A stretch of 64,000 bases of DNA from Syntrophomonadaceae bacterium (GTDB taxonomy: Bacteria; Bacillota; Syntrophomonadia; Syntrophomonadales; Syntrophomonadaceae), in contig DASRMR010000020.1 of assembly GCA_035647815.1 (NCBI GenBank), positions 12,870 through 76,869 of the forward strand, read 5' to 3'. The notes under the pieces are model-generated. The model ran no database searches. It saw only the letters and a list, made by a program, of their open reading frames with translations, and had not been told where the DNA came from. A program made the position numbers and the translations under genes. Shown here one piece after another: positions 46,014 to 64,000 of the stretch (position 1 is its first letter; every line of letters starts with the position of its first letter).

Positions 46014-46026
46014 AAAGGAGTTATAC

Positions 46027-48387: not shown

Positions 48388-48392
48388 AACAT

Positions 48393-49813: not shown

Positions 49814-50087
49814 TAAAAAATGCGGCGGGTAAGGTAACTAGTGGATTTTTAGTAGGAATTGAAAAGACACTAGCAATATTGCAGATGCAATTGCTTGGCT
49901 AAATATCGCTGAATCTTGTTAAACTTTTATCAAACAGTTATAATGATGTTAATATGTTTAAATATATGATAATCGAAAACATTTAACATTTCATCCCCTT
50001 CTTCTCTTTGTTTTTGAGTAAGATTAAACAGAAACATTGCATTTAACTTATTTTTTGTAATCCATCCGCTAATTGGGAGGAATTTAT

Positions 50088-52121
50088 TTGAATACTAGTA
50101 ACATGATTCATACGCCCTTAAGTTTGGAATTTAATAACGAAATTAAAAAACTAAAAAAGACCTATTATTACAACAACAAGGATTTTTCATCCTTAAATTC
50201 GTTACCTAGCCAAATAACCGCTTCGTGGAACAATTCTCGAAAGAACGGTATTGATCCTTTTTCTAATTTTACGGATATAGCTTATGAAAAAGTAGAAATG
50301 GATAAGATATCCGATGAAAGTAAAATCCTGTTAAAGGCAGCTACACCACTTATCGAAAAAATTGTTAGTCACTTATTTCCTATAAATGGTTTATGCTTGG
50401 CAGACAAAAATGGACTTGTTCTATTAGTTAAAGAGGCAGCGCGAAGTCCAATAAAGAAAAATGCATTTTCAGAAGGTATTGTTCTAAGTGAAGAAAATAT
50501 TGGCACTATCTCACAGAACTTGTGCATTAAATATCAAAAACCGGTGCAATTATTTGGTGCCGCTAATTATCATTCCTTTTTGGAAGATGATCTTAGTATG
50601 TCTACTCCAATTTTCAATACAAACAATGAATTAATAGGAGCATTGACATTAAATATAGTCACAAAAGAAGAAATCGAAGATGCGTATCTTGAAAGAACAT
50701 ATACTTATTTAATGGGATGGGCTAAATCTCTTGCTCATGCAATTCAATCCCAAGTAATGTTAATAAACAAAAATCAATCATTTACCATTACTAATGAAGC
50801 CTTTGAAACGGTTATATCGGCTGTTGATAAAGGAATTTTAGCTATTGATTGCAATGGAAATATAAAACATGTAAATAAAGAAAGCGAAAGGATTCTAGGA
50901 GATAGTAAAGAATCTATAATAAAAAATAATATTTCCGAATATATAGATAATACTCGCATTTTAGATAGGATAATTAACCAAAAAAAGACTATAGAAAGCA
51001 TGGAGAATATAAAAGGGAAGAACAAACCGAAATTAAAATATTTTATAAAGATTTCGCCAATTCTTGATCAAAACCAAAATGTAGAAGGGGCCGTTTTGAC
51101 CATACCTTTGGTATCAGAAAACAGCACTACAATTAATAAGCAGACAGGGAATACAGCGATCTACGATTTTGAAAAAATAATTGGTAACAGTGATTCCTTA
51201 ACTAAGACTATAAACATTGCTAAAAAGTTTGCCTATACAAATAATAATGTATTGATTGTAGGTGAAAGTGGGACTGGCAAAGAACTTTTTGCACAGTCTA
51301 TACACAATCAAAGCAGGGCAAGAAGGCCCTTTATAGCAATAAATTGCGCTTCAGTTTCCCATAGCCTAATTGAAAGTGAACTATTTGGATATGAAGGTGG
51401 CACATTTACAGGTGCGGATAAAAAGGGAAGGAAGGGGAAAATTGAATTAGCTAATGGGGGCACCCTTTTCTTAGATGAAATTGGTGATATGCCATTGGAA
51501 ATACAGCCTATTTTACTACGAGTGCTTGAAGATAAAAAAATAATGCGCCTAGGAGGAAATAGATATATTCCTGTAGATTTTAGGCTTGTAACTGCGACTA
51601 ATAAAGACTTATTGCAAGCCGTTAGGGATAAAGAATTTCGAGAAGATTTATATTATCGAATAGCAACTTTTAAAGTCATAATCCCTCCTTTAAGAAAAAG
51701 AGAAGGAGATATCGAATTGTTAGCAAAGTATTTTATTGAAGAAGCATGTCAAGAAATGGAAAGATCAATACCTGTTTTAAGTAAAGAAACACTTGATTAT
51801 TTGAACAATCATTATTGGAGTGGCAATGTAAGGCAACTTCAAAATGTTATAATCTATGCAGTTAGTATGTTGAATCCAGCTGAAACATTAATAGGGATTA
51901 ACCATTTACCTAGTGATATGTTTCTTAATAATAATACCCCGCATGAAGATTTTAATAATATAAGTTCTGTAACAACTTTGCGGGATTTAGAAAAAGAAGC
52001 TATTGAAAACGCCTTGGCAATTTGTGATTTCAATGTTGAGGACGCAGCTATACAGCTTGGAATAAGTAGAGCTACATTGTATAGGCGAATAAAAGAATAC
52101 AATATTGTTTTAAAAAAATAA
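50088..52121 (+). CDS. Sigma-54-dependent transcriptional activator (sensory N-terminal domain + PAS + AAA+ + Fis-type HTH)
   Basis: Walker A GESGTGKE, ESELFGYEGGTFTGA (GAFTGA-type sigma-54 contact loop), GGTLFLDEIGDM, RLVTATN and C-terminal AAIQLGISRATLYRRIKEY. GGGAGG RBS lies 7 nt before TTG 50088, with ATG 50103 as an alternative. Confidence 0.93.
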   Translation: MNTSNMIHTPLSLEFNNEIKKLKKTYYYNNKDFSSLNSLPSQITASWNNSRKNGIDPFSNFTDIAYEKVEMDKISDESKILLKAATPLIEKIVSHLFPINGLCLADKNGLVLLVKEAARSPIKKNAFSEGIVLSEENIGTISQNLCIKYQKPVQLFGAANYHSFLEDDLSMSTPIFNTNNELIGALTLNIVTKEEIEDAYLERTYTYLMGWAKSLAHAIQSQVMLINKNQSFTITNEAFETVISAVDKGILAIDCNGNIKHVNKESERILGDSKESIIKNNISEYIDNTRILDRIINQKKTIESMENIKGKNKPKLKYFIKISPILDQNQNVEGAVLTIPLVSENSTTINKQTGNTAIYDFEKIIGNSDSLTKTINIAKKFAYTNNNVLIVGESGTGKELFAQSIHNQSRARRPFIAINCASVSHSLIESELFGYEGGTFTGADKKGRKGKIELANGGTLFLDEIGDMPLEIQPILLRVLEDKKIMRLGGNRYIPVDFRLVTATNKDLLQAVRDKEFREDLYYRIATFKVIIPPLRKREGDIELLAKYFIEEACQEMERSIPVLSKETLDYLNNHYWSGNVRQLQNVIIYAVSMLNPAETLIGINHLPSDMFLNNNTPHEDFNNISSVTTLRDLEKEAIENALAICDFNVEDAAIQLGISRATLYRRIKEYNIVLKK

Positions 52122-52140
52122 AAATATCTTTTATAAAATT

Positions 52141-52187
52141 ATTAAGCCGGGTTCGCTATGCGAGACCCGGCTTAATATATTTTTATT
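52141..52187. terminator. Bidirectional terminator between the activator gene and the DASS transporter
   Basis: ATTAAGCCGGGT-N12-ACCCGGCTTAAT, flanked by A- and T-rich runs. Confidence 0.8.
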
Positions 52188-52189: not shown

Positions 52190-53578
52190 TTACAAACCAA
52201 CAATAGGCATCATGAAAGAAACCCAGAATGTTAGTAGCAAAATAAACACAATTGTAGGTACTAAACCTGTTTTGAAAACATCCCCCATAGTGTAATGGCC
52301 AGGACTATAAGTTATCATTAAAACAGGGTTTAAAGGTAAGAGATAGCAAACACCAACACCCATAGAAACGATTAGAGTAATAGCGACAGGTGAAAATAGA
52401 CCAGTAGACATTCCAACTGCTGCTAATGGTGGTATTAGAAGTCCTACTAAAGCAGGTCCCATTGGGAATACTGCATGAAGAAGAACTACAAATGTTGTTA
52501 CAATTAATAGGACGACCAGACCAGATAAGCCAGATACACTAGCAACTAATCCCTCTGCCATCCAACTAGCTCCGCCAGTTGCTAAAACTCCGCCTGCAAC
52601 TGACATAATACATCCGATTACTAGAAGTACGCTCCATGGCACTCCTTTATTATAATCATCCCAAGTCATTAAATCTATACCGGGAACGAAAAACAGGATT
52701 AACCCTAGCAAAGCAACCATGGTGGAATTGATTTGCGGGAACCATGCCCCAGCAAACCATAAAACTAACAAAAGACCAATAATAGAAACTAATTTAATTT
52801 CTTGGACACTGAAGGGGCCTGCGGCCGCTACTTCTTTTTCTAAAACAGCAAGTGCCTCTTTATTAACTGGTTCTGGTTTAAAAACTTTGACAATAAAGAA
52901 CCACTCAACAAATACCATTACTAGTGCAATAGGATATGCAATTACAGTCCATTGAAGAAAGGAAATAGAAAGTCCAGCAACATCTGACAATACTTGCATG
53001 CCCATCACATTGATTGCTGTACCAATTGGTGTAGCAATACCACCTGTCATAACTGCAAGTGGAATACCTAACATAAGTGCTTTTACTAAATTAGATTCCC
53101 TTGGTTTTGCACCCATTGCTGCGACTAAGGTAAAAGCAATTCCTAAAAACAACATAGTTGTGGTAGTGTTTTGCATTATTGATGATACTAAACAACCAGC
53201 AAGCATGAAGCCGAGAACTAATTTTTCAGAGTTATCACCCGCCCAGTTTAAAAGAACACCTGTAATTCGGGCTCCTAAATTTGTATTCATCATAGCTATT
53301 GTTAAAGAGAAAGCGCCGAGGATAAAAAGCAAAACTGGTGACATAAATCCTGCAACTGCTTCGGGAAATGTTATTACATCCAATATAGGCATTAATAATA
53401 AAAGTATAAACCCAGTTATAGCAGTAGGAAAAGATTCAAATAACCAAAGGGAAACTCCACTAAATAATACTGCTAGTCCCATTTTCCCTGCAGTTGATAA
53501 TCCTTCGGGATCGGGAAGAAAATAAGCTGTTACTAATATTAAGGCTGCTATTACTATGCCGGTGATTCTTTTTGTCAT
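52190..53578 (-). CDS. DASS/SLC13-type anion (di/tricarboxylate-like) transporter, paralog 1
   Basis: 462-aa polytopic protein, alignable along its full length by eye with the 56666..58054 product (both 462 aa and both ending in a shared ...VGL / ...LGL C-terminus). Confidence 0.8.
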   Translation of the reverse strand: MTKRITGIVIAALILVTAYFLPDPEGLSTAGKMGLAVLFSGVSLWLFESFPTAITGFILLLLMPILDVITFPEAVAGFMSPVLLFILGAFSLTIAMMNTNLGARITGVLLNWAGDNSEKLVLGFMLAGCLVSSIMQNTTTTMLFLGIAFTLVAAMGAKPRESNLVKALMLGIPLAVMTGGIATPIGTAINVMGMQVLSDVAGLSISFLQWTVIAYPIALVMVFVEWFFIVKVFKPEPVNKEALAVLEKEVAAAGPFSVQEIKLVSIIGLLLVLWFAGAWFPQINSTMVALLGLILFFVPGIDLMTWDDYNKGVPWSVLLVIGCIMSVAGGVLATGGASWMAEGLVASVSGLSGLVVLLIVTTFVVLLHAVFPMGPALVGLLIPPLAAVGMSTGLFSPVAITLIVSMGVGVCYLLPLNPVLMITYSPGHYTMGDVFKTGLVPTIVFILLLTFWVSFMMPIVGL

Positions 53579-53736
53579 TAGCTGTCACTACCTTTCGTTT
53601 AATATAAAATAAGAATTATTTTTATAATCATTGCACTTAAATAACATTGTAATTTTAATTTAAGGTGAATATTTTTTGTGAGGCTGTCCAGAGTTTTTCC
53701 GAACAACCTCACATATTCATATGTTTTTTATAAATT

Positions 53737-54066
53737 TTAACGAAGAGTAAATAATAACATTTTATCATCAGTTAGTTTTTTCTTTAATTCTTCTATAGGG
53801 CCAATTTCTATAACTCCAGTTTGACAATGTTGGACGCAACTAGGCAACTTCCCCTTTTCCACTCGTTCAGTGCAACGAGTGCAATAGTCTGTAGGCGATA
53901 CAAAATAATCGAATTGCCATTTTTCGCCGACGGGGAAGGGCCCAATTTTTCTTACTTCTAGCCCGCATGTTTCAGGATCATAGTTGTTTTCTTGTTGGCA
54001 AGCTATTTCACAAGCATGGCAACCAGTACAGAATTTATAGTTTACAAATAAACCATATTGAGCCAC
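53737..54066 (-). CDS. Small 4Fe-4S ferredoxin-type subunit of the molybdopterin oxidoreductase
   Basis: 109 aa with CTGCHACEIAC and CTRC...CVQHC motifs. Starts 3 nt after the stop of the catalytic subunit gene. Confidence 0.75.
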   Translation of the reverse strand: MAQYGLFVNYKFCTGCHACEIACQQENNYDPETCGLEVRKIGPFPVGEKWQFDYFVSPTDYCTRCTERVEKGKLPSCVQHCQTGVIEIGPIEELKKKLTDDKMLLFTLR

Positions 54067-54068
54067 TA

Positions 54069-56279
54069 TTATTCTCCTCCTTCCACTTTATAAATTTTAC
54101 AAAGCGATGCTTTATACGAGTTACCAAAACCTGTGCTGCCTGGATTGTCACCTATGAGATTATTTATATTAGATTCAAAAACACCGTGAAAGCCATCTAA
54201 TGCATCTTTTTCTGGGAACCACCAACCATGGGCGGAGCTCACTACATCACGGCGGATGCCATTAGTTAATTTAGCTTTTTGTTTACATTTTCCTAAATGA
54301 TTTTCAATCCAAATCCAATCGCCATCTTTGATGCCATGCTCTTTGGCTACATCCGTGTGTATCTCGGTAATAGGATCAGAGTGAACTCTTCTAAGAGATG
54401 GAACGTTTCTATGTTCAGAGTGGAATAATCCAGGAACACGGGTGCCTGTAGTTAAAACTAGAGGATATTTTTCGTACAATTCTGGTGTACTTACTGGACT
54501 TTCTGGGGGTTCTTTATAAAACGGTAGTGGATCAACACCATACATTTCCAGTACACTAGTTGTAAATTCAAATAAACCTGAAGCAGTGTCAAATCCGGGT
54601 TCTCCATCTGGTCTTAGTAAGCCTTTTTCATGTCTGTTATATTCGAAATCTGTATACTTCCAATTTTGATTTTTAAGATCGTGGTAATCAATTCCTTGTT
54701 CAGCAGTTAGCGATTCGTACATTTCGACATCAGTTTCCCACGGATAAGCTTCTTTATTAAATCTGCGACCTAAATCTATGAGAATTTGTTGGTCGGATTT
54801 AGTATCTCCAACAGGATCAACTGCTTGAGTCAATGGCCCTAGGAAATAAGGTTGATGTCCAACTAGACCATGCCTTTCTCCAAAGGTGCTGGCTGGTAAT
54901 ACTATGTCACCTACTGCTACAGCAGTTGGACTCATGAAAAGATCAACTATGACATTTAGTTCTGTATTAGATAAGGCTTTGTATACTTTATCTGCGTCAG
55001 CACCCATACAGGCTATCGGATTATTAGTTTGCATGAAAACGCCTTTAATAGGATGAGGTTCACCGGTAAGCATAGCGTTAGTAATGGCTGTTGGTTCAGA
55101 CATGGCAGTGAGACCTAAGAATACAGGATTGCCTAAGCGTGTTGCTTTTTGCTCATCACTTAATAAATCAAATCCCCAACCAGATCTCCAAGTTTGTGTA
55201 ATTCCAAATGGATATTTACCAATGACTTGGGTTCCAGGTTTTTCAATATCACCCGTTAAACCAAATAAATTACGAACTGCAATAGATGCATGTAAACCCT
55301 CTTGGATTTGGTCAAATGGTAGTCCGGAATGAATACATGCTCTTTCAGCATTGGCATAAGCTCTGGCAACAGCTATGATGTCATCTGCATCAACGCCACA
55401 AATTTCAGCTACTTTTTCTACTGGGTATTCTTTACAACGCTCAGCATAATCTTCGAAACCGTAACCCCATTTGTCCACAAATTCTTTGTCATAAAGACCT
55501 TCTTGAATAATTATGTTTGCTAAACCTAGTGCTAGGGCAGCGTCTGTTCCAGGTCTAATTTGTAAAAAGTGCTCTGATCTTCCAGCCCACCATGTTACAC
55601 GTGGGTCAATAGTTATTACCTTTGTACCTCTTTTCATTACTTCTACAATCCAATATCCTAAGTTGCCATCAGGGTTGGAATTTTCCGGATTAGTACCCCA
55701 AATAATCATATATTCCGGAACTTTATAGTTTGGATTATCAAAACGATCTGGGAAAAACTGAGAACTATCTACAACGGTAGGATTACCAACTCCTAGAGCT
55801 AATGCTAATTGACGTGGAGCATAGCAAGCCATTCCAGATAAAAACCCGCAAGTATAGTTACCAGAACCTAAAGCAAATGGTAAACGGCAGGTATATCCGT
55901 TTACATCTCTACCAGTTCCTTGGAAGAAGGCTAATGCTTTTGGCCCATATTCATCCATAATTTTGCGCCATTTTTCTTCAATGAAATCATATGCTTCGTC
56001 CCAGCTAATTGGTTTCCACTTGTTTTCTCCCCGCTCTCCTACACGCAACATAGGCGATTTTAGACGTTCTGGGTTATATAAAACCTCTTTGTATGCGAGA
56101 CAGCGCGAACATAATCTTCCCTGGTTATAGGGATTGTCTGGGTCGCCTTCAATTTTTTCTAGTTTCCCGTCTTTTAGATACATCAAAACGCCACAATTAT
56201 TGTGGCAACCTGGCCCTGTCCGAGCATGGCTGCGGATTATTGTGTAGCCATCTTCTTCCCATGTCCATGGTTTTGCCAT
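54069..56279 (-). CDS. Cytoplasmic molybdopterin (bis-MGD) oxidoreductase catalytic subunit, DMSO-reductase superfamily
   Basis: 736 aa. N-terminal Cys-rich segment GPGCHNNCGVLMYLKDGKLEKIEGDPDNP...GRLCSRC, followed by typical MopB and C-terminal MGD-binding barrel segments (GDWIWIEN...). No twin-arginine signal. Confidence 0.85.
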   Translation of the reverse strand: MAKPWTWEEDGYTIIRSHARTGPGCHNNCGVLMYLKDGKLEKIEGDPDNPYNQGRLCSRCLAYKEVLYNPERLKSPMLRVGERGENKWKPISWDEAYDFIEEKWRKIMDEYGPKALAFFQGTGRDVNGYTCRLPFALGSGNYTCGFLSGMACYAPRQLALALGVGNPTVVDSSQFFPDRFDNPNYKVPEYMIIWGTNPENSNPDGNLGYWIVEVMKRGTKVITIDPRVTWWAGRSEHFLQIRPGTDAALALGLANIIIQEGLYDKEFVDKWGYGFEDYAERCKEYPVEKVAEICGVDADDIIAVARAYANAERACIHSGLPFDQIQEGLHASIAVRNLFGLTGDIEKPGTQVIGKYPFGITQTWRSGWGFDLLSDEQKATRLGNPVFLGLTAMSEPTAITNAMLTGEPHPIKGVFMQTNNPIACMGADADKVYKALSNTELNVIVDLFMSPTAVAVGDIVLPASTFGERHGLVGHQPYFLGPLTQAVDPVGDTKSDQQILIDLGRRFNKEAYPWETDVEMYESLTAEQGIDYHDLKNQNWKYTDFEYNRHEKGLLRPDGEPGFDTASGLFEFTTSVLEMYGVDPLPFYKEPPESPVSTPELYEKYPLVLTTGTRVPGLFHSEHRNVPSLRRVHSDPITEIHTDVAKEHGIKDGDWIWIENHLGKCKQKAKLTNGIRRDVVSSAHGWWFPEKDALDGFHGVFESNINNLIGDNPGSTGFGNSYKASLCKIYKVEGGE

Positions 56280-56453
56280 TAATGTTTCCTCCTTTAAATT
56301 TTAGTTGTTTAAAATAAGTGTTTCTTTGGATATGGTATAAAAACTACCCTTGTTTGAACTAAAATTCACTTACATTTAAATCACTAGCCCAATCCAGAGC
56401 AATTTTTTTGGAAAACACAACATACGAGGTCTGTGCTTCCATATATATAGTTA

Positions 56454-56469
56454 TGCATAATTCATGCCA
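56454..56469 (-). promoter_or_regulatory. Sigma-54 -24/-12 promoter (minus strand TGGCATGAATTATGCA)
   Basis: Correct GG-N10-GC spacing. It lies 175 nt upstream of the 56279 start codon. Confidence 0.7.
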
Positions 56470-56521
56470 ACGATAAAAGTCTTTAAAGCTGAGTTTTTCA
56501 CCTTTTTCCTATCCCTTTAGT

Positions 56522-56545
56522 TCTCAATTAGAGATTAACTTGAGA
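56522..56545. promoter_or_regulatory. Candidate enhancer (UAS) palindrome TCTCAA-N12-TTGAGA
   Basis: TCTCAATTAGAGATTAACTTGAGA lies 53 bp upstream of the 56454 sigma-54 promoter. A site with the same arms and spacing occurs at 62058..62081. Confidence 0.55.
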
Positions 56546-56594
56546 TTTGATAATATTTTTACGCTAGTTTGAATTTAATTACACTTATGCTAAA

Positions 56595-56637
56595 TAAAAA
56601 AGCCCGAATCTAGTAAACTTAGATTTGGGCTTTTTTG
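56595..56637 (-). terminator. Terminator after DASS transporter paralog 2 (bidirectional form)
   Basis: AAAAAAGCCCGAATCTA-loop-TAGATTTGGGCTTTTTT. Confidence 0.8.
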
Positions 56638-56665
56638 GTAACCTTTTGGATAATGGCTTATTTTG

Positions 56666-58054
56666 CTATAATCCTAGTACAGATACTATAAATGGGAGCC
56701 AGAAGACCATTAAAAGAATATAAGTAAAAGTAATAAATACCCCTGGTTTTATTACATCACTCATAGAATAATAGCCGTCGTTGTATGTTATTAGTATATT
56801 GGGATTAAGTGGTAGTAAATAACATGCCTCAAATGCTAAAGCTACCATGATAGCAGCCACTGCAGGTGAGAACATGCCTGTTTGCAAACCAATATCTGCC
56901 ATTGGTATTAAAAACAAACCTACTCCGGCAGGACCTATGGGGAAAACTGAATGTAACAAAACTAAAAATGTAGCTAAAACAGCTAACACCCCAAAAGTTC
57001 CTAATCCACCTGTAATAGACAAGACTGAATCGGTAAGAAATCTAGCTGCACCAGTTTCTAAAGCAACGGCAGCAAATGCCTGAATACTACCAATCATCAG
57101 TACTATATTCCAAGGAACTGCCGCAAAAAACTCATTGCCTTCTAAAAGATTTACTCCCGGTAAAAACATAATTATTAGGCCAACCATGGCAACTGTAGTT
57201 GTATTTAATACCGGAATCCAAGAACCGAGAACCCAACAAATTAACATGGCCGTAACGAGGGTTAGTACTTTTTTCTCTCTAAATGTTAATTTGCCTAAGT
57301 TGGCGATTTGTGTTTCTAATTCGACTAAAGCGTCACTAGCAATATCTTCAGGTTTTAGGATTTTAGTGACAAAAAACCAAGCAGTGAGAACCATTATAAT
57401 GGAAATAGGTATTCCTATTACCATCCAATCTAAAAAACTGATAGTCATACCATAGTGTTGACCTAAAAGGTCAATTGCCATCATGTTTAAAGCTGATCCA
57501 GCTGGTGTAGACGCGCCGCCTGCCATTGCACCTAAAGGAACACCCAACATTAAACATTTACCTAAATTTGACTCTCCAGGTTTTGCATTTAATGGTTTTA
57601 GTAAGGAATAAACAATTCCAAGAAATAGGAAAGTTGCAGCCATATCGGACATAACTGCGGATAAGAGCGCTGTTCCTCCCATAAATGCTAAAACGATTTT
57701 ATTAGAAACTCCACCTGCCCATTTTAATAATATTCCAGCAAGTCTAGTAGCTAGTTCCGTTTTCATTATAATTGCAGTAATTCCAAAAGTAGCAATAACA
57801 AAGAAAATAACAGGACTTATAAAAGATTGGAAAACGCTATTTAAATCTTTTATTCCAAAAAAACTAATCAATAGCATCAATAAGAAACCAGTAATTGATA
57901 CCGGGAATGTTTCGGAAACCCATAAAACAACAGCGGCTAGCAATAGCCCTAAAGACATTTTCCCAGCATATCCAAGAGCTTCAGGGGCAGGCATGAAATA
58001 AGTTGCTATAATAATCACAATCGCTAAAACAAAACCAATATTTTTTTTGTTCAT
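56666..58054 (-). CDS. DASS/SLC13-type anion transporter, paralog 2
   Basis: 462-aa polytopic protein, colinear with the 52190..53578 product. Confidence 0.8.
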   Translation of the reverse strand: MNKKNIGFVLAIVIIIATYFMPAPEALGYAGKMSLGLLLAAVVLWVSETFPVSITGFLLMLLISFFGIKDLNSVFQSFISPVIFFVIATFGITAIIMKTELATRLAGILLKWAGGVSNKIVLAFMGGTALLSAVMSDMAATFLFLGIVYSLLKPLNAKPGESNLGKCLMLGVPLGAMAGGASTPAGSALNMMAIDLLGQHYGMTISFLDWMVIGIPISIIMVLTAWFFVTKILKPEDIASDALVELETQIANLGKLTFREKKVLTLVTAMLICWVLGSWIPVLNTTTVAMVGLIIMFLPGVNLLEGNEFFAAVPWNIVLMIGSIQAFAAVALETGAARFLTDSVLSITGGLGTFGVLAVLATFLVLLHSVFPIGPAGVGLFLIPMADIGLQTGMFSPAVAAIMVALAFEACYLLPLNPNILITYNDGYYSMSDVIKPGVFITFTYILLMVFWLPFIVSVLGL

Positions 58055-58177
58055 TTATACGTTTCTCCCTTTTGCATTTTTATCAATATAAATTTGCAGG
58101 TGTCGGGAAATGTTCGAACAAATCCTGGCACTGTATAAACAATTTTTGTGTATGGGATAAATACTTCACCTAGTAAA

Positions 58178-58217
58178 TATTCCTTTTCCCGGTAGTTGTG
58201 ATTCGGGAAAAGGAATA
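58178..58217 (-). other. 14-bp perfect intercistronic hairpin between the Fe-S subunit and transporter genes
   Basis: TATTCCTTTTCCCG-N12-CGGGAAAAGGAATA. On the minus strand only a weak U-tract (TTTAC) follows. Confidence 0.6.
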
Positions 58218-58225
58218 AAGTTCCT

Positions 58226-59032
58226 TTAAATCTTCTCTAGAGGAACATCTTCTAATTTAATACTATCTTCTACTTTTATATTTTTCTCTTCATATGTTTT
58301 GTAGCCAGCTTTTTCTATTTTGATATTATAATTACCGGAAGGTAATTTTCTTAACCAAAAGTCACCGAAACAGTCGGTTCCCGTTTCCAATGTTTGATTG
58401 GTTTTGTTGCAAGTTAAAGAAACTAGTGCCTCCTCGATACACTCATCTTCTATAGGATCGAAGACTTCACCGGCGACAAAATTATGGAAACGATTGAGAT
58501 AATATACCCTCGGACTTAAGCCAAGTTCAGGTTGCATAACTTCTGCTTGGGCAATTAAATCTGCAAAGTCTTCTTCTTCGCCAAATTGTAATGCTCCAGT
58601 AGCACATGCATCAACACAGCGTGGAATACCACCTTCGTCTAACAAGTGAGCGCACCCGGTACATTTTTGGGGCAATTGTAAAAATTCGTTCCAATATATT
58701 TTGTTATATGGGCAAGTATCTACAATTTCTTTTTTGTTTTGAGCTTTTGTTGGGTCTATAATAACTAAACCGTCATCTCTTTTATAAACCGCTCCATCTT
58801 CAGTTATGCAAGGTGCATTATCGCAATGCATGCATGGAGTAGGGGTGTACTCAATTTTAACTTTCGGAGTCTGCCCATGGATTTTTTCATGAATTTTCAT
58901 CCAAAATTGTCCTGTATCTGGTTGGGGTTTGGCATAACTACCCCAGTCGTTATCAACATGCTCATCTTTACAGGCAATTTGACAATTATAGCAACCGTTA
59001 CATTTCGCAATGTCAACCACAAATACTTTCAT
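58226..59032 (-). CDS. Fe-S (multi-[4Fe-4S]) beta subunit with C-terminal carboxypeptidase-regulatory-like beta-sandwich domain (BthL-like)
   Basis: CNGCYNCQIAC, CMHCDNAPC and CTGCAHL...CVDAC motifs. The C-terminal ~70 aa (GDFWLRKLPSGNYNIKIEKAGYKTYEEKNIKV) look like a CarboxypepD_reg-type fold. Confidence 0.8.
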   Translation of the reverse strand: MKVFVVDIAKCNGCYNCQIACKDEHVDNDWGSYAKPQPDTGQFWMKIHEKIHGQTPKVKIEYTPTPCMHCDNAPCITEDGAVYKRDDGLVIIDPTKAQNKKEIVDTCPYNKIYWNEFLQLPQKCTGCAHLLDEGGIPRCVDACATGALQFGEEEDFADLIAQAEVMQPELGLSPRVYYLNRFHNFVAGEVFDPIEDECIEEALVSLTCNKTNQTLETGTDCFGDFWLRKLPSGNYNIKIEKAGYKTYEEKNIKVEDSIKLEDVPLEKI

Positions 59033-59035
59033 TGA

Positions 59036-61621
59036 TTAGACCTCCTTTTCTAGACAAGCTTCAAATGCTACACCTGAATCTTTGTCATATTGTTTTGCAA
59101 ATGCATCTGGATATTCTGTTCTAAGTTTTTTCATATCCGCTTTAGCAATGTTAACTAAAAACCCACTAGTTACTTCACCGGCACAATTTTGCGAGGTAGT
59201 ATTGCCGGGACAGATTAGGTTATTGGCCCCTCCACGATCTATTTTGCCTGCATCAATTGAATCTAACCTTGCACCATGATCTTGGTATACTACTCCAGGC
59301 TTGATTCGTTCAGTAACATAAGCACCGCCTAAAACGATACCCCTATCATTATAAACTTCTACTATATCACCTTGTTTAATATTTTCTTTTATAGCATCGA
59401 TGGGGTTGATCCATACAGGTTCGTATAAGTATCCATCTTTGCCCTCAACTTTACATGTTGGAATTTCTCTTAACCAAGAAATGTCGTCTAAGTTAGCATG
59501 AACACGCCATCTAGGATGGTTAGATACTATTAAATAAGGAAACTCTTCAGATCTGGAATGCAACATACTTTCCTGATGAGTTTTCCCGTAAGGAATAAAC
59601 TTAGGAACTGGCCCTCTTTCATCGTCATCCGGGAATTGTTCTTTTATATTAGTGGAGCTAAATTCTAGTTTACCTGTTGGTGTGCTAAGAGGAAATTGCT
59701 CTGGATCTTCATAAAAAGGAAAAAACCCTGGCGGATCATTTTCCCAATCTTCAGCAACTGGTATTACGATATATTCCTTATCACGAAATTCTTCATAGGA
59801 ATCAACATAATGAGCAACACCTGATTCTTCAAAACCGATTTTAATACAATCTTCAACAGTTTTTCCTTGGGTATATTCTTCGTAAAGGCCTAATTTTTTC
59901 GCAACTTCTGCAACAGCTTCCCAGTCGCTCTTGGATTCACCATATGGCTCAATGCATTGCCCTTCATGGTATAAAAGGTTATATTGTCCGCTCATGGTGT
60001 CGATTGCAATATCTTCGGTTTCAAACTTAGTATTGACTGGTAATATAATGTCTGCAAAATGACAATCATTTTCCATCCAAATGTGTTGCACGAGGAAAAA
60101 CTCAATGCTTTTATGGCGGATAGCTTCTATAAATCTATTTCCACCATTCCAGCAAGTAGTCCAACAAGGGGTGTCACTCCATATCATGCGAATAGGAGTT
60201 CCACCATCATCAATTGGGTATTTGTACTCAATAAATTGGTCTTCTGCAGGGTAGCCGGCCCTAGTATGTCCATACCAGGTAATTGGTTCTTCTGCGACAA
60301 TTGCGTCCGGAATTAGAGTTTTGGGGATAAACTGTCTTGTGTTTGGGGTAAACCCTAAAGTTCCGTTATAACATCCTTTAGTACTAGGGATTATCTCAGT
60401 ACGTGGCCCAGGGTTTTGGGAGTGTAAATTATATAGATTCCATTCGATCATCTTCATTTGGTTGCGCCCTGGTTTTCCTAACGCTTGCATGCCTAAAAGA
60501 CATATTTCTAGTCTGGCAGGTTCTGAGGCATAAGTTGAACGGATAAAAGAACCACCATTACCATGAGCTATAGTGACATCCTCTTTAGCCCATTTTCTTG
60601 CTAAAGCCTTGATAGTTCTAGATGGCACTCCACAAATAGGGGCAGCCCACTTAGGCGTTTTAGGGATTCCATCTTCTTCTCCCATAACATAGGCTTTAAA
60701 TTCTTCAAAGCCATGTGAATGGGTTTTAATATATTCTTTGTCATAAGTATCTTCAAGAATCCAAGTATAAGCAATCGCTAATTGTAGTGCTGAATCAGTA
60801 TTTGGGTATACAGGAATCCACTTATCGGCATGAACTGCTGCAGCATAGTTTAAGTCGGGGCAAATATAAATCATATCAATACCCAAATCTTTAAACCAAT
60901 AAGTTAAACGGCTAGCTTGCTGGCCACTCCATCCCCAGGGGGTAGTTTCTTGGTCACAACCCCAAAATAAAATGGTGTCAGTATTTTCGGAGACATCTTT
61001 CCATAGGTTTGTTTGCTCGCCTTGGCCAACAGGGTCTTGCCCCCAAATATGTTTCCCTCCCCAATACCATCCTTCCCAGCTATCGGCATTACGCGCTTGC
61101 ATAGTAGCAGATCCCAGTAGATCTAAAAGAGGAGCTTGGCATCCGTGCCCACCATGTACGGATTTTGTTTCTCCATGTCCGTCTGCTTGAGCCAAAATTG
61201 ATAAAGAGCTGTATTCTTCACAGACTCGATTGATTTCTTTTGCAATTAAATCAGTGGCTTCATCCCAAGATATACGAACATACTTACTAATTCCTCTGTT
61301 TTGGGGATTTCTTTCCCCTTCGGGATCCCAGTCTACCCTTTTTAGGGGATATGGGATTCTGTTAGGTGAAAACGCGCGTTTTTTATAAACAATACTAAAT
61401 GGTGGTGGAAACGATTTCATTCCGGGGTCAAATTCTTTACCCTTAGCTTTTAAAGTCCAAGGACGAAATCTTTCTGCTGGATAATTTTTGTCGTAGCGGA
61501 AAGGGCGCGTACGAATTATTTTGCCATCTTTCACATCAACTTCACAAGTATTGGAACCCATAGCAAAACCGCAAAAACCCAACCCTTTGATAACGGTTTT
61601 CTCCTTATTGTTGTTTGACAT
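59036..61621 (-). CDS. Molybdopterin oxidoreductase large subunit, pyrogallol-hydroxytransferase (AthL)-like architecture
   Basis: 861 aa with no N-terminal CxxCxxxC Fe-S motif and no Tat signal. Typical MopB core and C-terminal barrel (GDIVEVYNDRG). It is paired with a ~270-aa Fe-S beta subunit. Confidence 0.8.
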   Translation of the reverse strand: MSNNNKEKTVIKGLGFCGFAMGSNTCEVDVKDGKIIRTRPFRYDKNYPAERFRPWTLKAKGKEFDPGMKSFPPPFSIVYKKRAFSPNRIPYPLKRVDWDPEGERNPQNRGISKYVRISWDEATDLIAKEINRVCEEYSSLSILAQADGHGETKSVHGGHGCQAPLLDLLGSATMQARNADSWEGWYWGGKHIWGQDPVGQGEQTNLWKDVSENTDTILFWGCDQETTPWGWSGQQASRLTYWFKDLGIDMIYICPDLNYAAAVHADKWIPVYPNTDSALQLAIAYTWILEDTYDKEYIKTHSHGFEEFKAYVMGEEDGIPKTPKWAAPICGVPSRTIKALARKWAKEDVTIAHGNGGSFIRSTYASEPARLEICLLGMQALGKPGRNQMKMIEWNLYNLHSQNPGPRTEIIPSTKGCYNGTLGFTPNTRQFIPKTLIPDAIVAEEPITWYGHTRAGYPAEDQFIEYKYPIDDGGTPIRMIWSDTPCWTTCWNGGNRFIEAIRHKSIEFFLVQHIWMENDCHFADIILPVNTKFETEDIAIDTMSGQYNLLYHEGQCIEPYGESKSDWEAVAEVAKKLGLYEEYTQGKTVEDCIKIGFEESGVAHYVDSYEEFRDKEYIVIPVAEDWENDPPGFFPFYEDPEQFPLSTPTGKLEFSSTNIKEQFPDDDERGPVPKFIPYGKTHQESMLHSRSEEFPYLIVSNHPRWRVHANLDDISWLREIPTCKVEGKDGYLYEPVWINPIDAIKENIKQGDIVEVYNDRGIVLGGAYVTERIKPGVVYQDHGARLDSIDAGKIDRGGANNLICPGNTTSQNCAGEVTSGFLVNIAKADMKKLRTEYPDAFAKQYDKDSGVAFEACLEKEV

Positions 61622-61749
61622 TTAGAGACCTCCTTTATTTTAAAAAAAGACAACTTTTAAGTGCATGTAGATTTAATATAGTGCTTGTATTCACATACAC
61701 AAATTTTATTGAGAAGGGGCACAAAAATGCACCTCCTTAACAAAAAAAA

Positions 61750-61905
61750 CTAGTCTTTTTTTTCTTCCGGCGTTTCTTTTGGGGCTGCCCCCGGGGCTGA
61801 CAGGTCTGTTTTACAGTGAATGCAAACCTTATTTATAGCTGGATTAAACTTGTTACAATTAGGACATTTAATTGGTTTTTGTACACTAGGTGGTCTAAAG
61901 CACAT
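61750..61905 (-). CDS. 51-aa zinc-ribbon micro-protein (first ORF of the sigma-54 operon)
   Basis: Not in the ORF track. AAGGAGGG RBS lies 7 nt before ATG 61905. MCFRPPSVQKPIKCPNCNKFNPAINKVCIHCKTDLSAPGAAPKETPEEKKD has CPxC...CxxC. Confidence 0.55.
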   Translation of the reverse strand: MCFRPPSVQKPIKCPNCNKFNPAINKVCIHCKTDLSAPGAAPKETPEEKKD

Positions 61906-61957: not shown

Positions 61958-61973
61958 TGCATAAAACATGCCA
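61958..61973 (-). promoter_or_regulatory. Sigma-54 -24/-12 promoter (minus strand TGGCATGTTTTATGCA)
   Basis: Correct spacing. It lies 53 nt upstream of the zinc-ribbon ORF start and is divergent from the 62131 promoter. Confidence 0.7.
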
Positions 61974-63046: not shown

Positions 63047-63062
63047 TGGCATGCTTTTTGCA
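63047..63062 (+). promoter_or_regulatory. Sigma-54 -24/-12 promoter (TGGCATGCTTTTTGCA)
   Basis: Near-perfect consensus, 56 nt upstream of TTG 63118. Confidence 0.75.
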
Positions 63063-63117
63063 TTTAATTTACTTGATGCTAGGTTTTTTGAAAAAGTTTA
63101 GAAAGGAGTTGACGAAA

Positions 63118-64000
63118 TTGCATTTACCAAAAGGGCTATTTTCCAAGACTTTGGAAGAAGCTTGTCAAGATATTACAACTAAATGTCTGGACTGTGAAAA
63201 GTGTTTAGTAAATTGCTTTCTAATTAATGAAATTAATGAACGGCCTAGAGAGATTGCTGAAAGAAAACCAACAGTTGACGAAGCATTTTCCTGCGCTCTT
63301 TGCGGATTATGTGCCACCATGTGTACAGCATCCTTAAATATAGGTGAGATGTTTAATTTAAAAAGGGTCGAAGCTATTAAAATAGGTCAAATAGATGCTG
63401 ACGACTATTGCTATATTTTCCCGGATAGACCGGAAACGGTTATGAGCACTTTTAGGGACTACTATAAAGTTGACTATTCGAAAATGAATAAAGATATTCC
63501 ATCAGAAACAGCGTTTCTGCCAGGTTGCACATTGATGACATATTCTCCTAATTTAACAAAAGAAATATACGAGACACTAGCCAAAGATAATAACAATCCC
63601 TTGTTTTTTGAAGATTGTTGTGGCTTGACTATGTATCATATAGGGCTTCCTGAAAGGGGAGATAAAATTAAAGAAAGCTTAAGGGAAAAGGCGCGGATAT
63701 TAGGAGTAAAAAAGATTATTACAGCTTGCCCTAATTGCTATTACCAACTAAAAGACGAAGCTGCATTCAAAGACATACAGATTTTGACTGTATATGAAGC
63801 ACTAAAAGACCATTTTGTTCAAGCAGATGGCCAAGAAACATATGCGGTTCATGATACTTGCCCGGACCGATTCGAAGGAATTTTTGGTAAACATGTTAGA
63901 GAAAACCTCGATCTTATGGGATATAAAAGAGTAGAATTGAAAAATTGCGGTAAAAATGCTGTTTGTTGTGGGAGTAGTGGACAATTAGGACATTTTAGAC
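63118..64000 (+). CDS. Fe-S / CCG-domain oxidoreductase, paralog of 47254..48387 (partial, runs off the window end)
   Basis: Not in the ORF track because there is no stop within the window. GAAAGGAG RBS precedes TTG 63118. The translation LDCEKCLVNC...FSCALCGLCATMC...FLPGCTLMTYSPNL...EDCCGLT...ACPNCYYQL...VHDTCPDRFEGIFG...VCCGSSGQLGHFR is colinear with the 47254 product. Confidence 0.85.
   Translation, partial: MHLPKGLFSKTLEEACQDITTKCLDCEKCLVNCFLINEINERPREIAERKPTVDEAFSCALCGLCATMCTASLNIGEMFNLKRVEAIKIGQIDADDYCYIFPDRPETVMSTFRDYYKVDYSKMNKDIPSETAFLPGCTLMTYSPNLTKEIYETLAKDNNNPLFFEDCCGLTMYHIGLPERGDKIKESLREKARILGVKKIITACPNCYYQLKDEAAFKDIQILTVYEALKDHFVQADGQETYAVHDTCPDRFEGIFGKHVRENLDLMGYKRVELKNCGKNAVCCGSSGQLGHFR

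What the first reader, a model, noticed from the sequence alone, without database searches (positions are those of the whole stretch)
52190..61905. Tandem paralogous modules of cytoplasmic molybdoenzyme, Fe-S subunit and DASS anion transporter, substrate unknown
There are two back-to-back minus-strand modules, each with its own sigma-54 promoter.
- Module A contains a zinc-ribbon ORF, an 861-aa molybdopterin subunit lacking an Fe-S motif, a 268-aa multi-[4Fe-4S] subunit with a C-terminal beta-sandwich, and a 462-aa DASS transporter.
- Module B contains a 736-aa molybdopterin subunit with an N-terminal Cys cluster, a 109-aa ferredoxin-like subunit, and a 462-aa DASS transporter.

Neither catalytic subunit has a twin-arginine signal, and there is no membrane anchor subunit, so catalysis is cytoplasmic and acts on an imported anion. 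The module A subunit sizes and domain layout mirror Pelobacter acidigallici pyrogallol-phloroglucinol transhydroxylase (large subunit without Fe-S cluster; ~270-aa beta subunit with three clusters plus a beta-barrel domain).

Pairing such enzymes with dedicated carboxylate-type transporters under sigma-54 control is not a pathway I can name. Plausible chemistries are hydroxyl transfer, dehydroxylation or hydroxylation of carboxylated (poly)phenols or other organic anions.
Basis: partly seen in the sequence, partly recalled or inferred. Interest (0 to 1): 0.85.

Follow-up and report, generated by a model that had tools for sequence, protein, structure and literature searches.

The report
Paired molybdoenzyme operons for phenolic acids
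Two neighbouring sigma-54-controlled operons in an uncultured anaerobe pair a catechol-dehydroxylase-type molybdoenzyme with an uncharacterised relative of pyrogallol transhydroxylase, each with its own anion carrier, and the same enzyme pairing recurs in human-gut Gordonibacter and Ellagibacter, which points to an undescribed route for reshaping plant phenolic acids.

Summary
All seven ORFs, both sigma-54 promoters, and the absence of Tat signals and membrane anchors are real.

The modules are not paralogous as wholes. Only the two DASS carriers are paralogues (43% identity). The catalytic subunits belong to different branches of the DMSO-reductase superfamily (23% identity).

- **Module B (736 aa + 109 aa ferredoxin):** a member of the cytoplasmic two-subunit "Gordonibacter-type" catechol dehydroxylases. 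It is 43-44% identical to Dodh and Cldh, which are 45% identical to each other, and shares their invariant Cys motifs.
- **Module A (861 aa + 268 aa):** homologous to pyrogallol-phloroglucinol transhydroxylase AthL/BthL, but in a separate, large, uncharacterised subfamily (34-41% identity to AthL). It keeps the Mo-ligand Ser, Asp and His. It lacks the Trp147/Tyr152/Arg153 segment and the Tyr404 and Tyr560 loops that true transhydroxylases conserve.

The two enzymes recur together, often in one operon with DASS and/or MFS carriers, in Bacillota, Coriobacteriia and Chloroflexota. In Desulfitobacterium they sit beside an O-demethylase.

Most likely function: uptake and cytoplasmic hydroxyl-group editing of hydroxylated aromatic acids. 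The substrate is unknown. I rate this a new variant of a known kind, of moderate interest.

The parts
61958..61973 (-). Sigma-54 (-24/-12) promoter of operon A: TGGCATGTTTTATGCA
   Evidence: One search found 5 sites in the window against 0.25 expected. The same motif lies upstream of MoA orthologues in L004, L008, L009, L012 and L088.
61750..61905 (-). 51-aa zinc-ribbon ORF (CPNC...CIHC), first gene of operon A
   Evidence: Sequence read and translated. tblastn finds it again next to MoA or MoB orthologues in L001-L004, L008, L009, L012 and L087-L089. Function unknown.
59036..61621 (-). MoA: 861-aa AthL-like bis-MGD catalytic subunit with no Fe-S cluster and no Tat signal. Ser181 is the presumed Mo ligand.
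   Evidence: Pfam AhtL-like_1st. PDB 4v4c_A E = 7.6e-137. 38% identity to AthL and a distinct subfamily signature.
58226..59032 (-). FeS-A: 268-aa BthL-like subunit with three [4Fe-4S] Cys motifs and a C-terminal beta-sandwich
   Evidence: Pfam Fer4_11 + CarboxypepD_reg. PDB 4v4c_B E = 1.4e-60, aligned over residues 4-255.
58178..58217 (-). Stable stem-loop between FeS-A and DASS-A with no clear U-run. It could be a partial terminator or an mRNA-stability element.
   Evidence: -21.3 kcal/mol, z = -4.0. No promoter-like site on this strand in the gap.
56666..58054 (-). DASS-A: 462-aa DASS-family carrier, last gene of operon A
   Evidence: Pfam Na_sulph_symp E = 4e-40. TIGR00785 scores 178 bits, below its 198.6 cut-off. 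VcINDY E = 2.6e-26. The second SNT motif is replaced by FPIGPA.
56596..56636 (-). Intrinsic terminator of operon A (hairpin plus U-run)
   Evidence: -19.8 kcal/mol, z = -4.6. Sequence read.
56454..56469 (-). Sigma-54 promoter of operon B: TGGCATGAATTATGCA
   Evidence: The same motif lies upstream of MoB orthologues in L001 and L087.
54069..56279 (-). MoB: 736-aa catechol-dehydroxylase-type bis-MGD subunit. It has an atypical N-terminal 4-Cys motif (C25, C29, C57, C60) and an invariant Cys152 in (A/S)CxxPR.
   Evidence: 43.4% and 44.4% identity to Dodh and Cldh over the full length. phmmer gives 692 and 669 bits, against 286 bits for acetylene hydratase. The motifs are invariant in 59-60 of 60 family members.
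53737..54066 (-). Fer-B: 109-aa ferredoxin with eight Cys, enough for two [4Fe-4S] clusters (a truncated DmsB type)
   Evidence: Pfam Fer4_11 and Fer4. Matches to both ends of DmsB. Orthologues sit next to every MoB homologue examined.
53677..53713 (-). Very stable stem-loop between Fer-B and DASS-B, followed by an A-run, so not a canonical terminator
   Evidence: -26.9 kcal/mol, z = -8.9.
52190..53578 (-). DASS-B: 462-aa DASS-family carrier, a paralogue of DASS-A
   Evidence: TIGR00785 scores 220.9 bits, above its cut-off. 43% identity to DASS-A with no gaps. Motifs QNT and FPMGPA replace the two SNT motifs.
52140..52177 (-). Terminator hairpin shared by DASS-B and the convergent regulator gene
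   Evidence: -27.3 kcal/mol, z = -7.5.
50073..52121 (+). Sigma-54 enhancer-binding protein (N-terminal sensor region, PAS, AAA+, HTH_8), the presumed activator of both operons
   Evidence: Pfam and NCBIfam. Homologous activators of 34-41% identity sit beside MoA or MoB orthologues in L004, L008, L009, L012, L087 and L088.
47254..49343 (+). CCG-domain Fe-S protein (377 aa) and DUF169-ferredoxin fusion (316 aa). They may belong to the system as an electron-transfer module. This is an inference.
   Evidence: Pfam. The same set (activator, CCG, CCG, DUF169-Fer) flanks the enzyme cluster in Desulfitobacterium chlororespirans L088, where CCG1 is 50% identical. Occurrence elsewhere is sporadic.
63047..64000 (+). 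A further sigma-54 site (63047-63062) followed by a second CCG-type Fe-S gene that starts near 63128 and runs off the window
   Evidence: Membership in the system is uncertain.

Best explanation
These are two sigma-54-dependent operons, probably switched on by the adjacent enhancer-binding protein when a phenolic acid is present. Each operon imports an organic anion through its own divergent DASS carrier, and the ring hydroxyl groups are then edited in the cytoplasm.

MoB/Fer-B is a two-subunit catechol dehydroxylase of the Gordonibacter type. Electrons pass through the two [4Fe-4S] clusters of Fer-B and the N-terminal cluster of MoB to a Cys-ligated Mo/W-bis-MGD centre, which removes one hydroxyl of a catechol as water.

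MoA/FeS-A is a Ser-ligated AthL-family enzyme of an uncharacterised subfamily. It adds, removes or moves a phenolic hydroxyl on the same compound or on the product of MoB.

The two enzymes form one functional pair. Likely substrates are hydroxylated benzoates or phenyl-alkanoates, such as protocatechuate, gallate, 3,5-dihydroxybenzoate or dihydroxyphenyl-acetate, -propionate or -valerate, released by O-demethylation or by tannin and flavonoid breakdown.

Shown: gene content, family membership, promoters, recurrence of the pairing. Inferred: the reaction of MoA, the substrates, the electron donor, and co-transcription of the carriers.
For: - **MoB family placement.** MoB is as close to the characterised Dodh and Cldh (43-44% identity) as they are to each other (45%; supplementary file 2c of PMC7028382). 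It is far closer to them than to acetylene hydratase (692 and 669 bits against 286). Dodh and Cldh nest inside the MoB-homologue tree. Family-invariant Cys motifs are shared.
- **MoB architecture.** No Tat signal, a small 4Fe-4S partner and a neighbouring transporter, exactly as described for Gordonibacter-type enzymes (PMC7028382; PMC12771579).
- **MoA/FeS-A.** Homologous to AthL/BthL along their whole length. His149, Asp180, Ser181 and the WEGW motif are kept.
- **Pairing recurs.** Logan contigs L001 and L004, Gordonibacter L005 and an Ellagibacter-type contig L006, and D. chlororespirans L088.
- **Single co-directional operons** in Gordonibacter faecis L031, L059, L083, L040 and Anaerolineales L011.
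- **Regulation.** Sigma-54 sites and activators are conserved.
- **Link to methoxylated aromatics.** L088 and L089 place the enzymes beside corrinoid O-demethylase components.
- **Cofactor supply.** MobB and MoeA are in the window.
- **Ecological precedent.** Methanogenic enrichments convert protocatechuate to 3-hydroxybenzoate by an unknown enzyme (PMC4585845).
Against: - There is no substrate evidence of any kind.
- The MoA subfamily lacks the residues conserved in true transhydroxylases, so its chemistry is open.
- Characterised DASS carriers move di- and tricarboxylates or sulfate, not aromatic monocarboxylates. That statement rests on my own knowledge.
- Of 80 MoA-anchored genome loci, only 14 carry a catechol-dehydroxylase-like gene, 15 carry a DASS gene and 3 carry both.
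- Gordonibacter and Ellagibacter strains carry more than 30 uncharacterised catechol-dehydroxylase homologues per genome (PMC12771579), so some adjacency there could be chance.
- The window holds no ring-reduction or ring-cleavage genes.
- The closest Gordonibacter homologue is neither Dodh nor Gs Vadh (primer tests).
- Co-transcription of the carriers is inferred only from the absence of promoters and of U-run terminators in the gaps.
Confidence: 0.55

Rival explanations
1. Operon A is a genuine gallate/pyrogallol pathway entry. MoA/FeS-A is a pyrogallol-phloroglucinol transhydroxylase that uses a tetrahydroxybenzene co-substrate, fed by a gallate carrier. Operon B is merely adjacent.
For: AthL and BthL are the best PDB matches over the full length. 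Database records name relatives 'pyrogallol hydroxytransferase'. An SDR gene follows the orthologue in L013 and two lie in L088, and phloroglucinol reductase is an SDR (PMC10470551).
Against: Identity to AthL is 34-41%, while the P. acidigallici, E. oxidoreducens and Chloroflexi enzymes are 56-62% identical to each other. Trp147, Tyr152 and Arg153 are replaced, and the Tyr404 and Tyr560 loops are deleted in all 118 subfamily members. No gallate decarboxylase, phloroglucinol reductase, cyclohydrolase or triacetate-lyase genes are in the window. The SDR gave only generic matches.
Confidence: 0.08
2. The two operons are independent. Each is a self-contained regulator-carrier-enzyme unit for a different substrate, and the neighbourhood reflects clustering of similar catabolic islands, not cooperation.
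For: There are separate promoters with a terminator between the operons. Most MoA-type loci have no catechol-dehydroxylase-like neighbour (66 of 80). L008 and L009 carry MoA/FeS-A with only an activator and MFS carriers. L087 and L089 carry MoB/Fer without an AthL-like gene.
Against: The genes are fused into one co-directional operon (MoB-Fer-MoA-FeS-DASS) in L031, L059, L083, L040 and L011, across Coriobacteriia and Chloroflexota. The closest relatives L001 and L004 keep both enzymes despite rearranged order and orientation.
Confidence: 0.2
3. The enzymes act on non-aromatic anions. Examples are S- or N-oxide carboxylates such as methionine or biotin sulfoxide for MoA, and hydration or reduction of an unsaturated or sulfur-containing acid for MoB.
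For: MoA also scores against BisC/DMSO/TMAO reductase models, although below their cut-offs (1eu1 at 4.7e-69). MoB's nearest solved structures are acetylene hydratase and polysulfide/thiosulfate reductase. DASS carriers classically take aliphatic di- and tricarboxylates. A methionine sulfoxide reductase gene follows the orthologue in L009.
Against: MoA is far closer to AthL (461 bits) than to any S-/N-oxide reductase (237 bits or less), and it has the BthL-type partner that those reductases lack. MoB is far closer to proven catechol dehydroxylases than to acetylene hydratase. The carriers lack the canonical second SNT motif. Genomic association is with O-demethylases and polyphenol-metabolising genera.
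Confidence: 0.1

Closest known systems
Gordonibacter-type catechol dehydroxylases (Dodh, Cldh, Gp Hcdh, Gs Vadh, Eadh1-3; Balskus laboratory, 2019-2025)
   Same: - MoB is 43-44% identical to Dodh and Cldh and shares their invariant Cys motifs.
- It has a similar size (736 aa against 764-799 aa) and no Tat signal.
- It has a small 4Fe-4S partner gene and a transporter next door.
- Known substrates include phenolic carboxylates (DOPAC, hydrocaffeate, dihydroxyphenylvalerate).
   Different: - The host is an environmental Bacillota MAG named Syntrophomonadaceae, not Coriobacteriia.
- The regulator is a sigma-54 activator, not a LuxR or LysR type.
- The carrier is a DASS type, not MFS only.
- It is coupled to an AthL-like enzyme, which none of the papers read here mention.
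- No characterised orthologue exists. The nearest Gordonibacter homologue (50% identity) is itself uncharacterised.
Pyrogallol-phloroglucinol transhydroxylase AthL/BthL of Pelobacter acidigallici (PDB 4v4c)
   Same: - Two-subunit cytoplasmic architecture.
- The large subunit has no Fe-S cluster and carries the AthL-type first domain.
- The Ser Mo-ligand, the neighbouring Asp and His144 are kept.
- The small subunit has three [4Fe-4S] motifs and a C-terminal beta-sandwich.
   Different: - Only 38% identity.
- Trp147, Tyr152 and Arg153 are replaced, and the Tyr404 and Tyr560 loops are deleted.
- It has a subfamily signature, DGHGETKxxHGxHG.
- It has a dedicated anion carrier and a sigma-54 promoter.
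- There are many paralogues per genome in some lineages.
Anaerobic 3,5-dihydroxybenzoate cluster of Thauera aromatica AR-1 and the resorcinol pathway of Azoarcus anaerobius
   Same: - The Thauera cluster also combines an AthL-family hydroxylase (recalled from memory) with a catechol-dehydroxylase/acetylene-hydratase-like gene that is needed for normal growth on the hydroxybenzoate (as cited in PMC7028382).
- MoB is 37% identical to that Thauera protein.
- As I recall, the Azoarcus pathway is driven by sigma-54 enhancer-binding proteins.
   Different: - Those are nitrate-respiring Proteobacteria that use an oxidative hydroxyhydroquinone route.
- The Thauera homologue has the canonical CxxCxxxC motif.
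- The primary papers were not available here, so the comparison of the AthL-like subunits is untested.
DASS (SLC13/INDY) carriers such as VcINDY and NaCT, and the DASS exchangers CitT and TtdT
   Same: Same fold family (Pfam Na_sulph_symp, TIGR00785, VcINDY E about 1e-26).
   Different: The first SNT motif is SDM or QNT. The second is replaced by FP(I/M)GPA, and this holds in all 30 cluster-associated DASS sequences examined. This suggests a different substrate or coupling, possibly substrate:product exchange. That is an inference.

Membership tests
Catechol dehydroxylases, Gordonibacter type | Catalytic subunit is closer to characterised catechol dehydroxylases than to any other bis-MGD enzyme | tested here: met
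   692 and 669 bits and 43-44% identity to Dodh and Cldh. Acetylene hydratase gives 286 bits and the Thauera homologue 453 bits. Dodh and Cldh nest within the MoB-homologue tree.
Catechol dehydroxylases, Gordonibacter type | No Tat signal, about 750-800 aa, co-located small 4Fe-4S protein, no membrane anchor | tested here: met
   The N-terminus MAKPWTWEEDGY... has no RR motif. The 109-aa, eight-Cys ferredoxin lies 2 bp downstream. No anchor gene is present.
Catechol dehydroxylases, Gordonibacter type | Family Cys motifs GCHxxCG...GRLCxRC and (A/S)CxxPR | tested here: met
   Present in MoB, Cldh, Dodh and 59-60 of 60 aligned homologues.
Catechol dehydroxylases, Gordonibacter type | Adjacent MFS transporter and a LuxR- or LysR-type substrate-responsive regulator | tested here: not met
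   The window has a DASS carrier and a sigma-54 activator instead. The Coriobacteriia versions of the same cluster do have LysR or LuxR regulators and an MFS carrier in addition to DASS.
Catechol dehydroxylases, Gordonibacter type | Reductive removal of a catechol hydroxyl | not testable with these tools
   Needs an enzyme assay.
Pyrogallol-phloroglucinol transhydroxylase (AthL/BthL) | Full-length homology of both subunits, no Fe-S cluster in the large subunit, beta-sandwich in the small subunit, cytoplasmic location | tested here: met
   E = 7.6e-137 and 1.4e-60 to 4v4c chains A and B. Pfam AhtL-like_1st and CarboxypepD_reg.
Pyrogallol-phloroglucinol transhydroxylase (AthL/BthL) | Ser Mo-ligand with adjacent Asp, and His144 | tested here: met
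   His149, Asp180 and Ser181 are invariant in the subfamily. The residue roles are recalled from Messerschmidt et al. 2004, which is not held here.
Pyrogallol-phloroglucinol transhydroxylase (AthL/BthL) | Substrate and co-substrate pocket residues conserved among true transhydroxylases (Trp147, Tyr152, Arg153, Trp354, Tyr404, Tyr560) | tested here: not met
   These positions are replaced (T, G, G, F) or fall in deleted loops in MoA and in 117-118 of 118 relatives. All are conserved in the P. acidigallici, E. oxidoreducens and Chloroflexi enzymes.
Pyrogallol-phloroglucinol transhydroxylase (AthL/BthL) | Orthology-level identity and pathway context (gallate decarboxylase, phloroglucinol reductase and the rest) | tested here: not met
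   38% identity against 56-62% within the transhydroxylase clade. None of the pathway genes are in the window.
Resorcinol / 3,5-dihydroxybenzoate hydroxylases (RhLS, DbhLS) | Sequence relationship of MoA to RhL and DbhL | not tested
   No reference sequences or papers could be obtained.
DASS (TC 2.A.47) anion carriers | Family profile match | tested here: met
   Pfam Na_sulph_symp matches both carriers (E = 1.7e-53 and 4e-40). TIGR00785 is above its cut-off for DASS-B and just below for DASS-A.
DASS (TC 2.A.47) anion carriers | Two SNT motifs that bind Na+ and carboxylate in VcINDY and NaCT | tested here: not met
   SDM or QNT stands at the first motif and FPxGPA at the second. The motif roles come from my knowledge of the INDY structures.

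The most novel reading that the evidence does not exclude
The pair is a 'split transhydroxylase'. The AthL-like enzyme hydroxylates the ring with water and sends two electrons out through its three-cluster subunit. The catechol-dehydroxylase-type enzyme takes those electrons through its small ferredoxin and removes a different hydroxyl. Together the two molybdoenzymes move a hydroxyl group around an aromatic acid with no external redox partner. In fermenters this would turn an unreactive hydroxylation pattern into one that can be reduced and cleaved. In respirers it would create a fresh catechol that can be dehydroxylated. A weaker variant is that the AthL-like subfamily is a second, unrecognised class of phenol dehydroxylases in gut Coriobacteriia.
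Probability: 0.15. Interest if true: 0.8.

Novelty: new variant of a known kind. Interest (0 to 1): 0.55.

Why it matters
Catechol dehydroxylases are now recognised as major shapers of dietary polyphenols and drugs in the gut, yet most remain without a substrate.

This locus exposes a large AthL-like subfamily: at least 593 relatives in one representative-genome scan, with several paralogues per genome in Gordonibacter, Raoultibacter, Desulfitobacterium and Dehalococcoidales. It is routinely mis-named 'pyrogallol hydroxytransferase' or 'TMAO reductase', fails the transhydroxylase active-site test, and has no characterised member in the literature I could search.

Its repeated operon fusion with a catechol dehydroxylase gives a concrete, testable handle on unexplained reactions. 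Examples are removal or migration of non-catechol hydroxyls during tannin, catechin and lignin-monomer breakdown, and the protocatechuate to 3-hydroxybenzoate step seen in methanogenic enrichments.

Cultivable carriers and an expression host already exist, so the question is directly approachable.

Tried and rejected
- **Is the nearest Gordonibacter homologue (P0206, 50% identity) a known enzyme?** The published dodh qPCR primers and the Gs Vadh (C1878_02750) RT-qPCR primers match none of the fetched loci. It is neither enzyme.
- **Accession look-up for Eadh1-3 in the PNAS 2025 supplement.** No accession numbers are given.
- **Primary papers.** Those on AthL structure and on the Thauera AR-1 cluster are not held. 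A search for the AthL active-site residues found nothing. Residue roles are therefore from memory, and RhL/DbhL could not be compared.
- **Literature.** Searches for the AthL-like/catechol-dehydroxylase pairing, or for any characterised member of the AthL-like subfamily, found nothing.
- **SDR genes as phloroglucinol reductase.** I tested whether the SDR next to orthologues (L013; also present in L088) is a phloroglucinol reductase. Only generic SDR matches came back, so this is inconclusive.
- **CCG and DUF169 genes as a fixed part of the system.** They are conserved with the activator in D. chlororespirans but sporadic elsewhere.
- **Riboswitch or other RNA element in the cluster.** Nothing credible.
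- **Rest of the window.** The Pfam scan found no ring-degradation or O-demethylase genes.
- **Not run.** Structure prediction was skipped, because sequence matches to solved structures were already decisive for the fold and the models cannot be inspected residue by residue here.


Full report
**What is there**

The window has about 35% G+C. The 861-aa protein is 100% identical to a GenBank protein from a metagenome-assembled 'Syntrophomonadaceae bacterium'.

On the minus strand, between 52190 and 61973, lie two transcription units.

- **Operon A:** sigma-54 site (61958-61973), a 51-aa zinc-ribbon ORF (61750-61905), MoA (861 aa), FeS-A (268 aa), a stem-loop, DASS-A (462 aa), then a hairpin with a U-run.
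- **Operon B:** sigma-54 site (56454-56469), MoB (736 aa), Fer-B (109 aa), a stem-loop, DASS-B (462 aa), then a terminator shared with a convergent sigma-54 enhancer-binding protein gene (50073-52121).

The sigma-54 motif TGGCAY-N5-WTGCW occurs five times in the window against 0.25 expected from shuffles. It recurs upstream of the orthologous genes in seven related Bacillota loci.

Neither catalytic subunit has a twin-arginine leader and there is no membrane-anchor gene. The gaps before the carrier genes hold stable stem-loops but no U-run terminator and no promoter-like site on that strand. Read-through from the sigma-54 promoters is therefore likely, though not shown.

**The modules are not duplicates**

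- The carriers are true paralogues (43% identity, equal length, no gaps).
- MoA and MoB share only 23% identity.
- The Fe-S proteins align only at their Cys motifs.

**Module B**

The best solved structure is acetylene hydratase (286 bits). That enzyme is reported as the nearest characterised relative of the catechol dehydroxylases (PMC7028382).

I took the Dodh and Cldh sequences from the published alignment of that paper. MoB is 43.4% and 44.4% identical to them over the full length, with 692 and 669 phmmer bits. Dodh and Cldh are 45% identical to each other.

In a neighbour-joining tree, Dodh and Cldh fall inside the diversity of MoB homologues.

MoB, Cldh, Dodh and 59-60 of 60 aligned relatives share two motifs:
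- an unusual N-terminal pattern, GCHxxCG...GRLCxRC;
- an invariant Cys in (A/S)CxxPR, which is the likely metal ligand by position relative to acetylene hydratase Cys141. That assignment is an inference.

The published description of the Gordonibacter type fits MoB point for point: smaller, no Tat signal, a small 4Fe-4S partner, soluble, and next to a transporter thought to import the substrate. The exceptions are that MoB's carrier is a DASS type and its regulator is a sigma-54 activator. Characterised substrates of that type include phenolic carboxylates (DOPAC, hydrocaffeate, dihydroxyphenylvalerate).

**Module A**

MoA and FeS-A match AthL and BthL of Pelobacter acidigallici along their whole lengths (E = 7.6e-137 and 1.4e-60). 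MoA carries the Pfam AthL-like first domain.

I aligned MoA with 118 of its homologues (58-83% identical to MoA) and with AthL, the Eubacterium oxidoreducens enzyme and a Chloroflexi relative. The last three sequences came from the same published alignment. The alignment shows two separate groups.

| Feature | True transhydroxylases | MoA group |
|---|---|---|
| Identity within the group | 56-62% | 58-83% to MoA |
| Identity to AthL | n/a | 34-41% |
| His144, Asp174, Ser175 (Mo ligand), WEGW | kept | kept |
| Trp147, Tyr152, Arg153 | conserved | replaced; signature DGHGETKxxHGxHG |
| Trp354 | conserved | replaced |
| Loops carrying Tyr404 and Tyr560 | present | deleted |

The roles I attach to these residues are recalled from the 2004 structure paper, which I could not open. 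MoA is therefore a homologue, not an orthologue, of the pyrogallol transhydroxylase, and its reaction is unknown.

The subfamily is large. A scan of one genome per species gave at least 593 relatives. They occur in Bacillota, Coriobacteriia, Chloroflexota (Anaerolineales, Dehalococcoidales), Syntrophorhabdales and Spirochaetes, often with several paralogues per genome. Each typically has its own FeS-A-type partner (65 of 80 loci) together with a regulator and a carrier.

**The pairing**

Looking up neighbours of the closest homologues showed that the two enzyme types travel together.

- L001 and L004 (83% and 73% MoA identity; 77% and 64% MoB identity) keep both enzymes plus DASS and/or MFS carriers and sigma-54 activators, despite different gene order.
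- The 50%-identical MoB homologues that are abundant in gut metagenomes lie next to an AthL-like gene, a FeS-A-like gene, a DASS carrier, an MFS carrier and a LysR regulator. Their protein clusters have 321 and 501 members, named Gordonibacter and Ellagibacter.
- In Gordonibacter faecis L031 and in L059, L083, L040 and Anaerolineales L011, the genes form one co-directional operon such as MoB-Fer-MoA-FeS-DASS.
- Desulfitobacterium chlororespirans L088 has two AthL-like pairs, two SDR genes, the MoB/Fer pair, a chemoreceptor, the three components of a corrinoid O-demethylase, a sigma-54 activator, two CCG-type Fe-S proteins and a DUF169-ferredoxin. The last set is mirrored in the window at 47254-49343, next to the activator (50% identity for the CCG protein).
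- L089 places the MoB/Fer pair beside a corrinoid methyltransferase system.
- Sporomusa L087 has activator, MoB/Fer, zinc-ribbon ORF and DASS.

Counted from the MoA side, the association is recurrent but not universal: 14 of 80 loci carry a catechol-dehydroxylase-like gene, 15 of 80 carry a DASS gene and 3 of 80 carry both.

**The carriers**

Both are DASS-family proteins. Aligned to NaCT, the first SNT motif reads SDM (A) or QNT (B), and the second is replaced by FP(I/M)GPA. All 30 DASS sequences found in these enzyme clusters lack the second SNT motif in the same way. I infer a dedicated subfamily with a different substrate or coupling, possibly substrate:product exchange as in other DASS exchangers.

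**Function**

I commit to this reading. A sigma-54-controlled system imports hydroxylated aromatic acids and edits their ring hydroxyls in the cytoplasm. MoB/Fer-B acts as a reductive catechol dehydroxylase. MoA/FeS-A performs a complementary hydroxyl transfer, hydroxylation or dehydroxylation on the same compound series.

Supporting context:
- O-demethylase genes sit next door in Desulfitobacterium and in another Bacillota MAG. Their action produces protocatechuate- and gallate-type products (PMC3306737; PMC4585845).
- The gut hosts are polyphenol specialists.
- MobB and MoeA are in the window.
- The Thauera 3,5-dihydroxybenzoate cluster offers a precedent. A catechol-dehydroxylase-like gene (37% identical to MoB) is needed for normal growth on that substrate. 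That the same cluster also encodes an AthL-family hydroxylase is recalled from memory, not checked here.

The substrate, the electron donor, and whether the two enzymes exchange electrons are all unknown. The window contains no ring-reduction or ring-cleavage genes.

**Novelty**

- Module B is a new member of a known family in a new regulatory and transport setting.
- Module A belongs to an uncharacterised subfamily that fails the active-site test for its namesake.
- None of the papers I could search describes the conserved pairing with DASS carriers. The library is incomplete, so this is absence of evidence only.

I rate the finding a new variant of a known kind, with interest 0.55. It stays above average because the AthL-like subfamily and its coupling to catechol dehydroxylases are a tractable open problem, with cultivable hosts and an existing expression system.

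Noticed in passing
window 61750-61905 (-); L001 3013-3162; L087 12679-12801; L088 5302-5406; L089 201-368: A 40-55-aa zinc-ribbon ORF (CPxC...CxxC) travels with these clusters in Bacillota. It sits sometimes before the AthL-like gene, sometimes before or after the catechol-dehydroxylase-type genes. Its function is unknown. It could be a small subunit, an assembly factor or a regulator.
   Followed up: partly
window 47254-49343 (+); L088 19352-22232: A CCG-domain Fe-S protein and a DUF169-ferredoxin fusion sit next to the sigma-54 activator, both here and in Desulfitobacterium chlororespirans. Related genes occur sporadically near AthL-like genes in Anaerolineales, Dehalococcoidales and Gordonibacter loci. 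They may be the missing electron-input module.
   Followed up: partly
window 40649-40664 (+), 62131-62146 (+), 63047-63062 (+): There are three further sigma-54-type sites. They lie ahead of an ABC-transporter/nucleoside-hydrolase/kinase operon (41130-47034), ahead of a GNAT acetyltransferase (62240-62707), and ahead of a second CCG-type Fe-S gene that runs off the window. The region looks like a sigma-54 regulon island.
   Followed up: no
L088 (Desulfitobacterium chlororespirans) 13895-16449; L089 5551-12066: Corrinoid-dependent methyltransferase (O-demethylase-type) genes lie directly beside the catechol-dehydroxylase-type and AthL-like genes. This hints that demethylation of methoxylated aromatics feeds these enzymes.
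   Followed up: partly
L036, L048, L070, L026 (Dehalococcoidales, Actinomycetes, Chloroflexi MAGs): These loci hold tandem arrays of three to five AthL-like paralogues on one contig, some without a recognisable Fe-S partner next to them. This suggests strong local expansion of the subfamily.
   Followed up: no
window 35470-37303 (+): MobB and MoeA (molybdopterin guanine dinucleotide synthesis and Mo insertion) lie about 15 kb upstream of the enzyme operons.
   Followed up: no
window 52190-53578 and 56666-58054; 28 DASS genes in related loci: All DASS carriers linked to these enzyme clusters replace the second SNT motif with PxGPA-type sequences. This looks like a distinct DASS subfamily.
   Followed up: partly
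window 39218-40297 (+): An Old-Yellow-Enzyme-type FMN oxidoreductase lies just upstream of the sigma-54 site at 40649. Enzymes of this family reduce activated C=C bonds, including cinnamate-type phenolic acids in other anaerobes. No link was tested.
   Followed up: no
window 21384-24261 (-): Two DUF4430 proteins lie here, one with three S-layer-homology repeats, next to a prenyltransferase/terpene-cyclase-like protein (20330-21376). They are unrelated to the finding.
   Followed up: no
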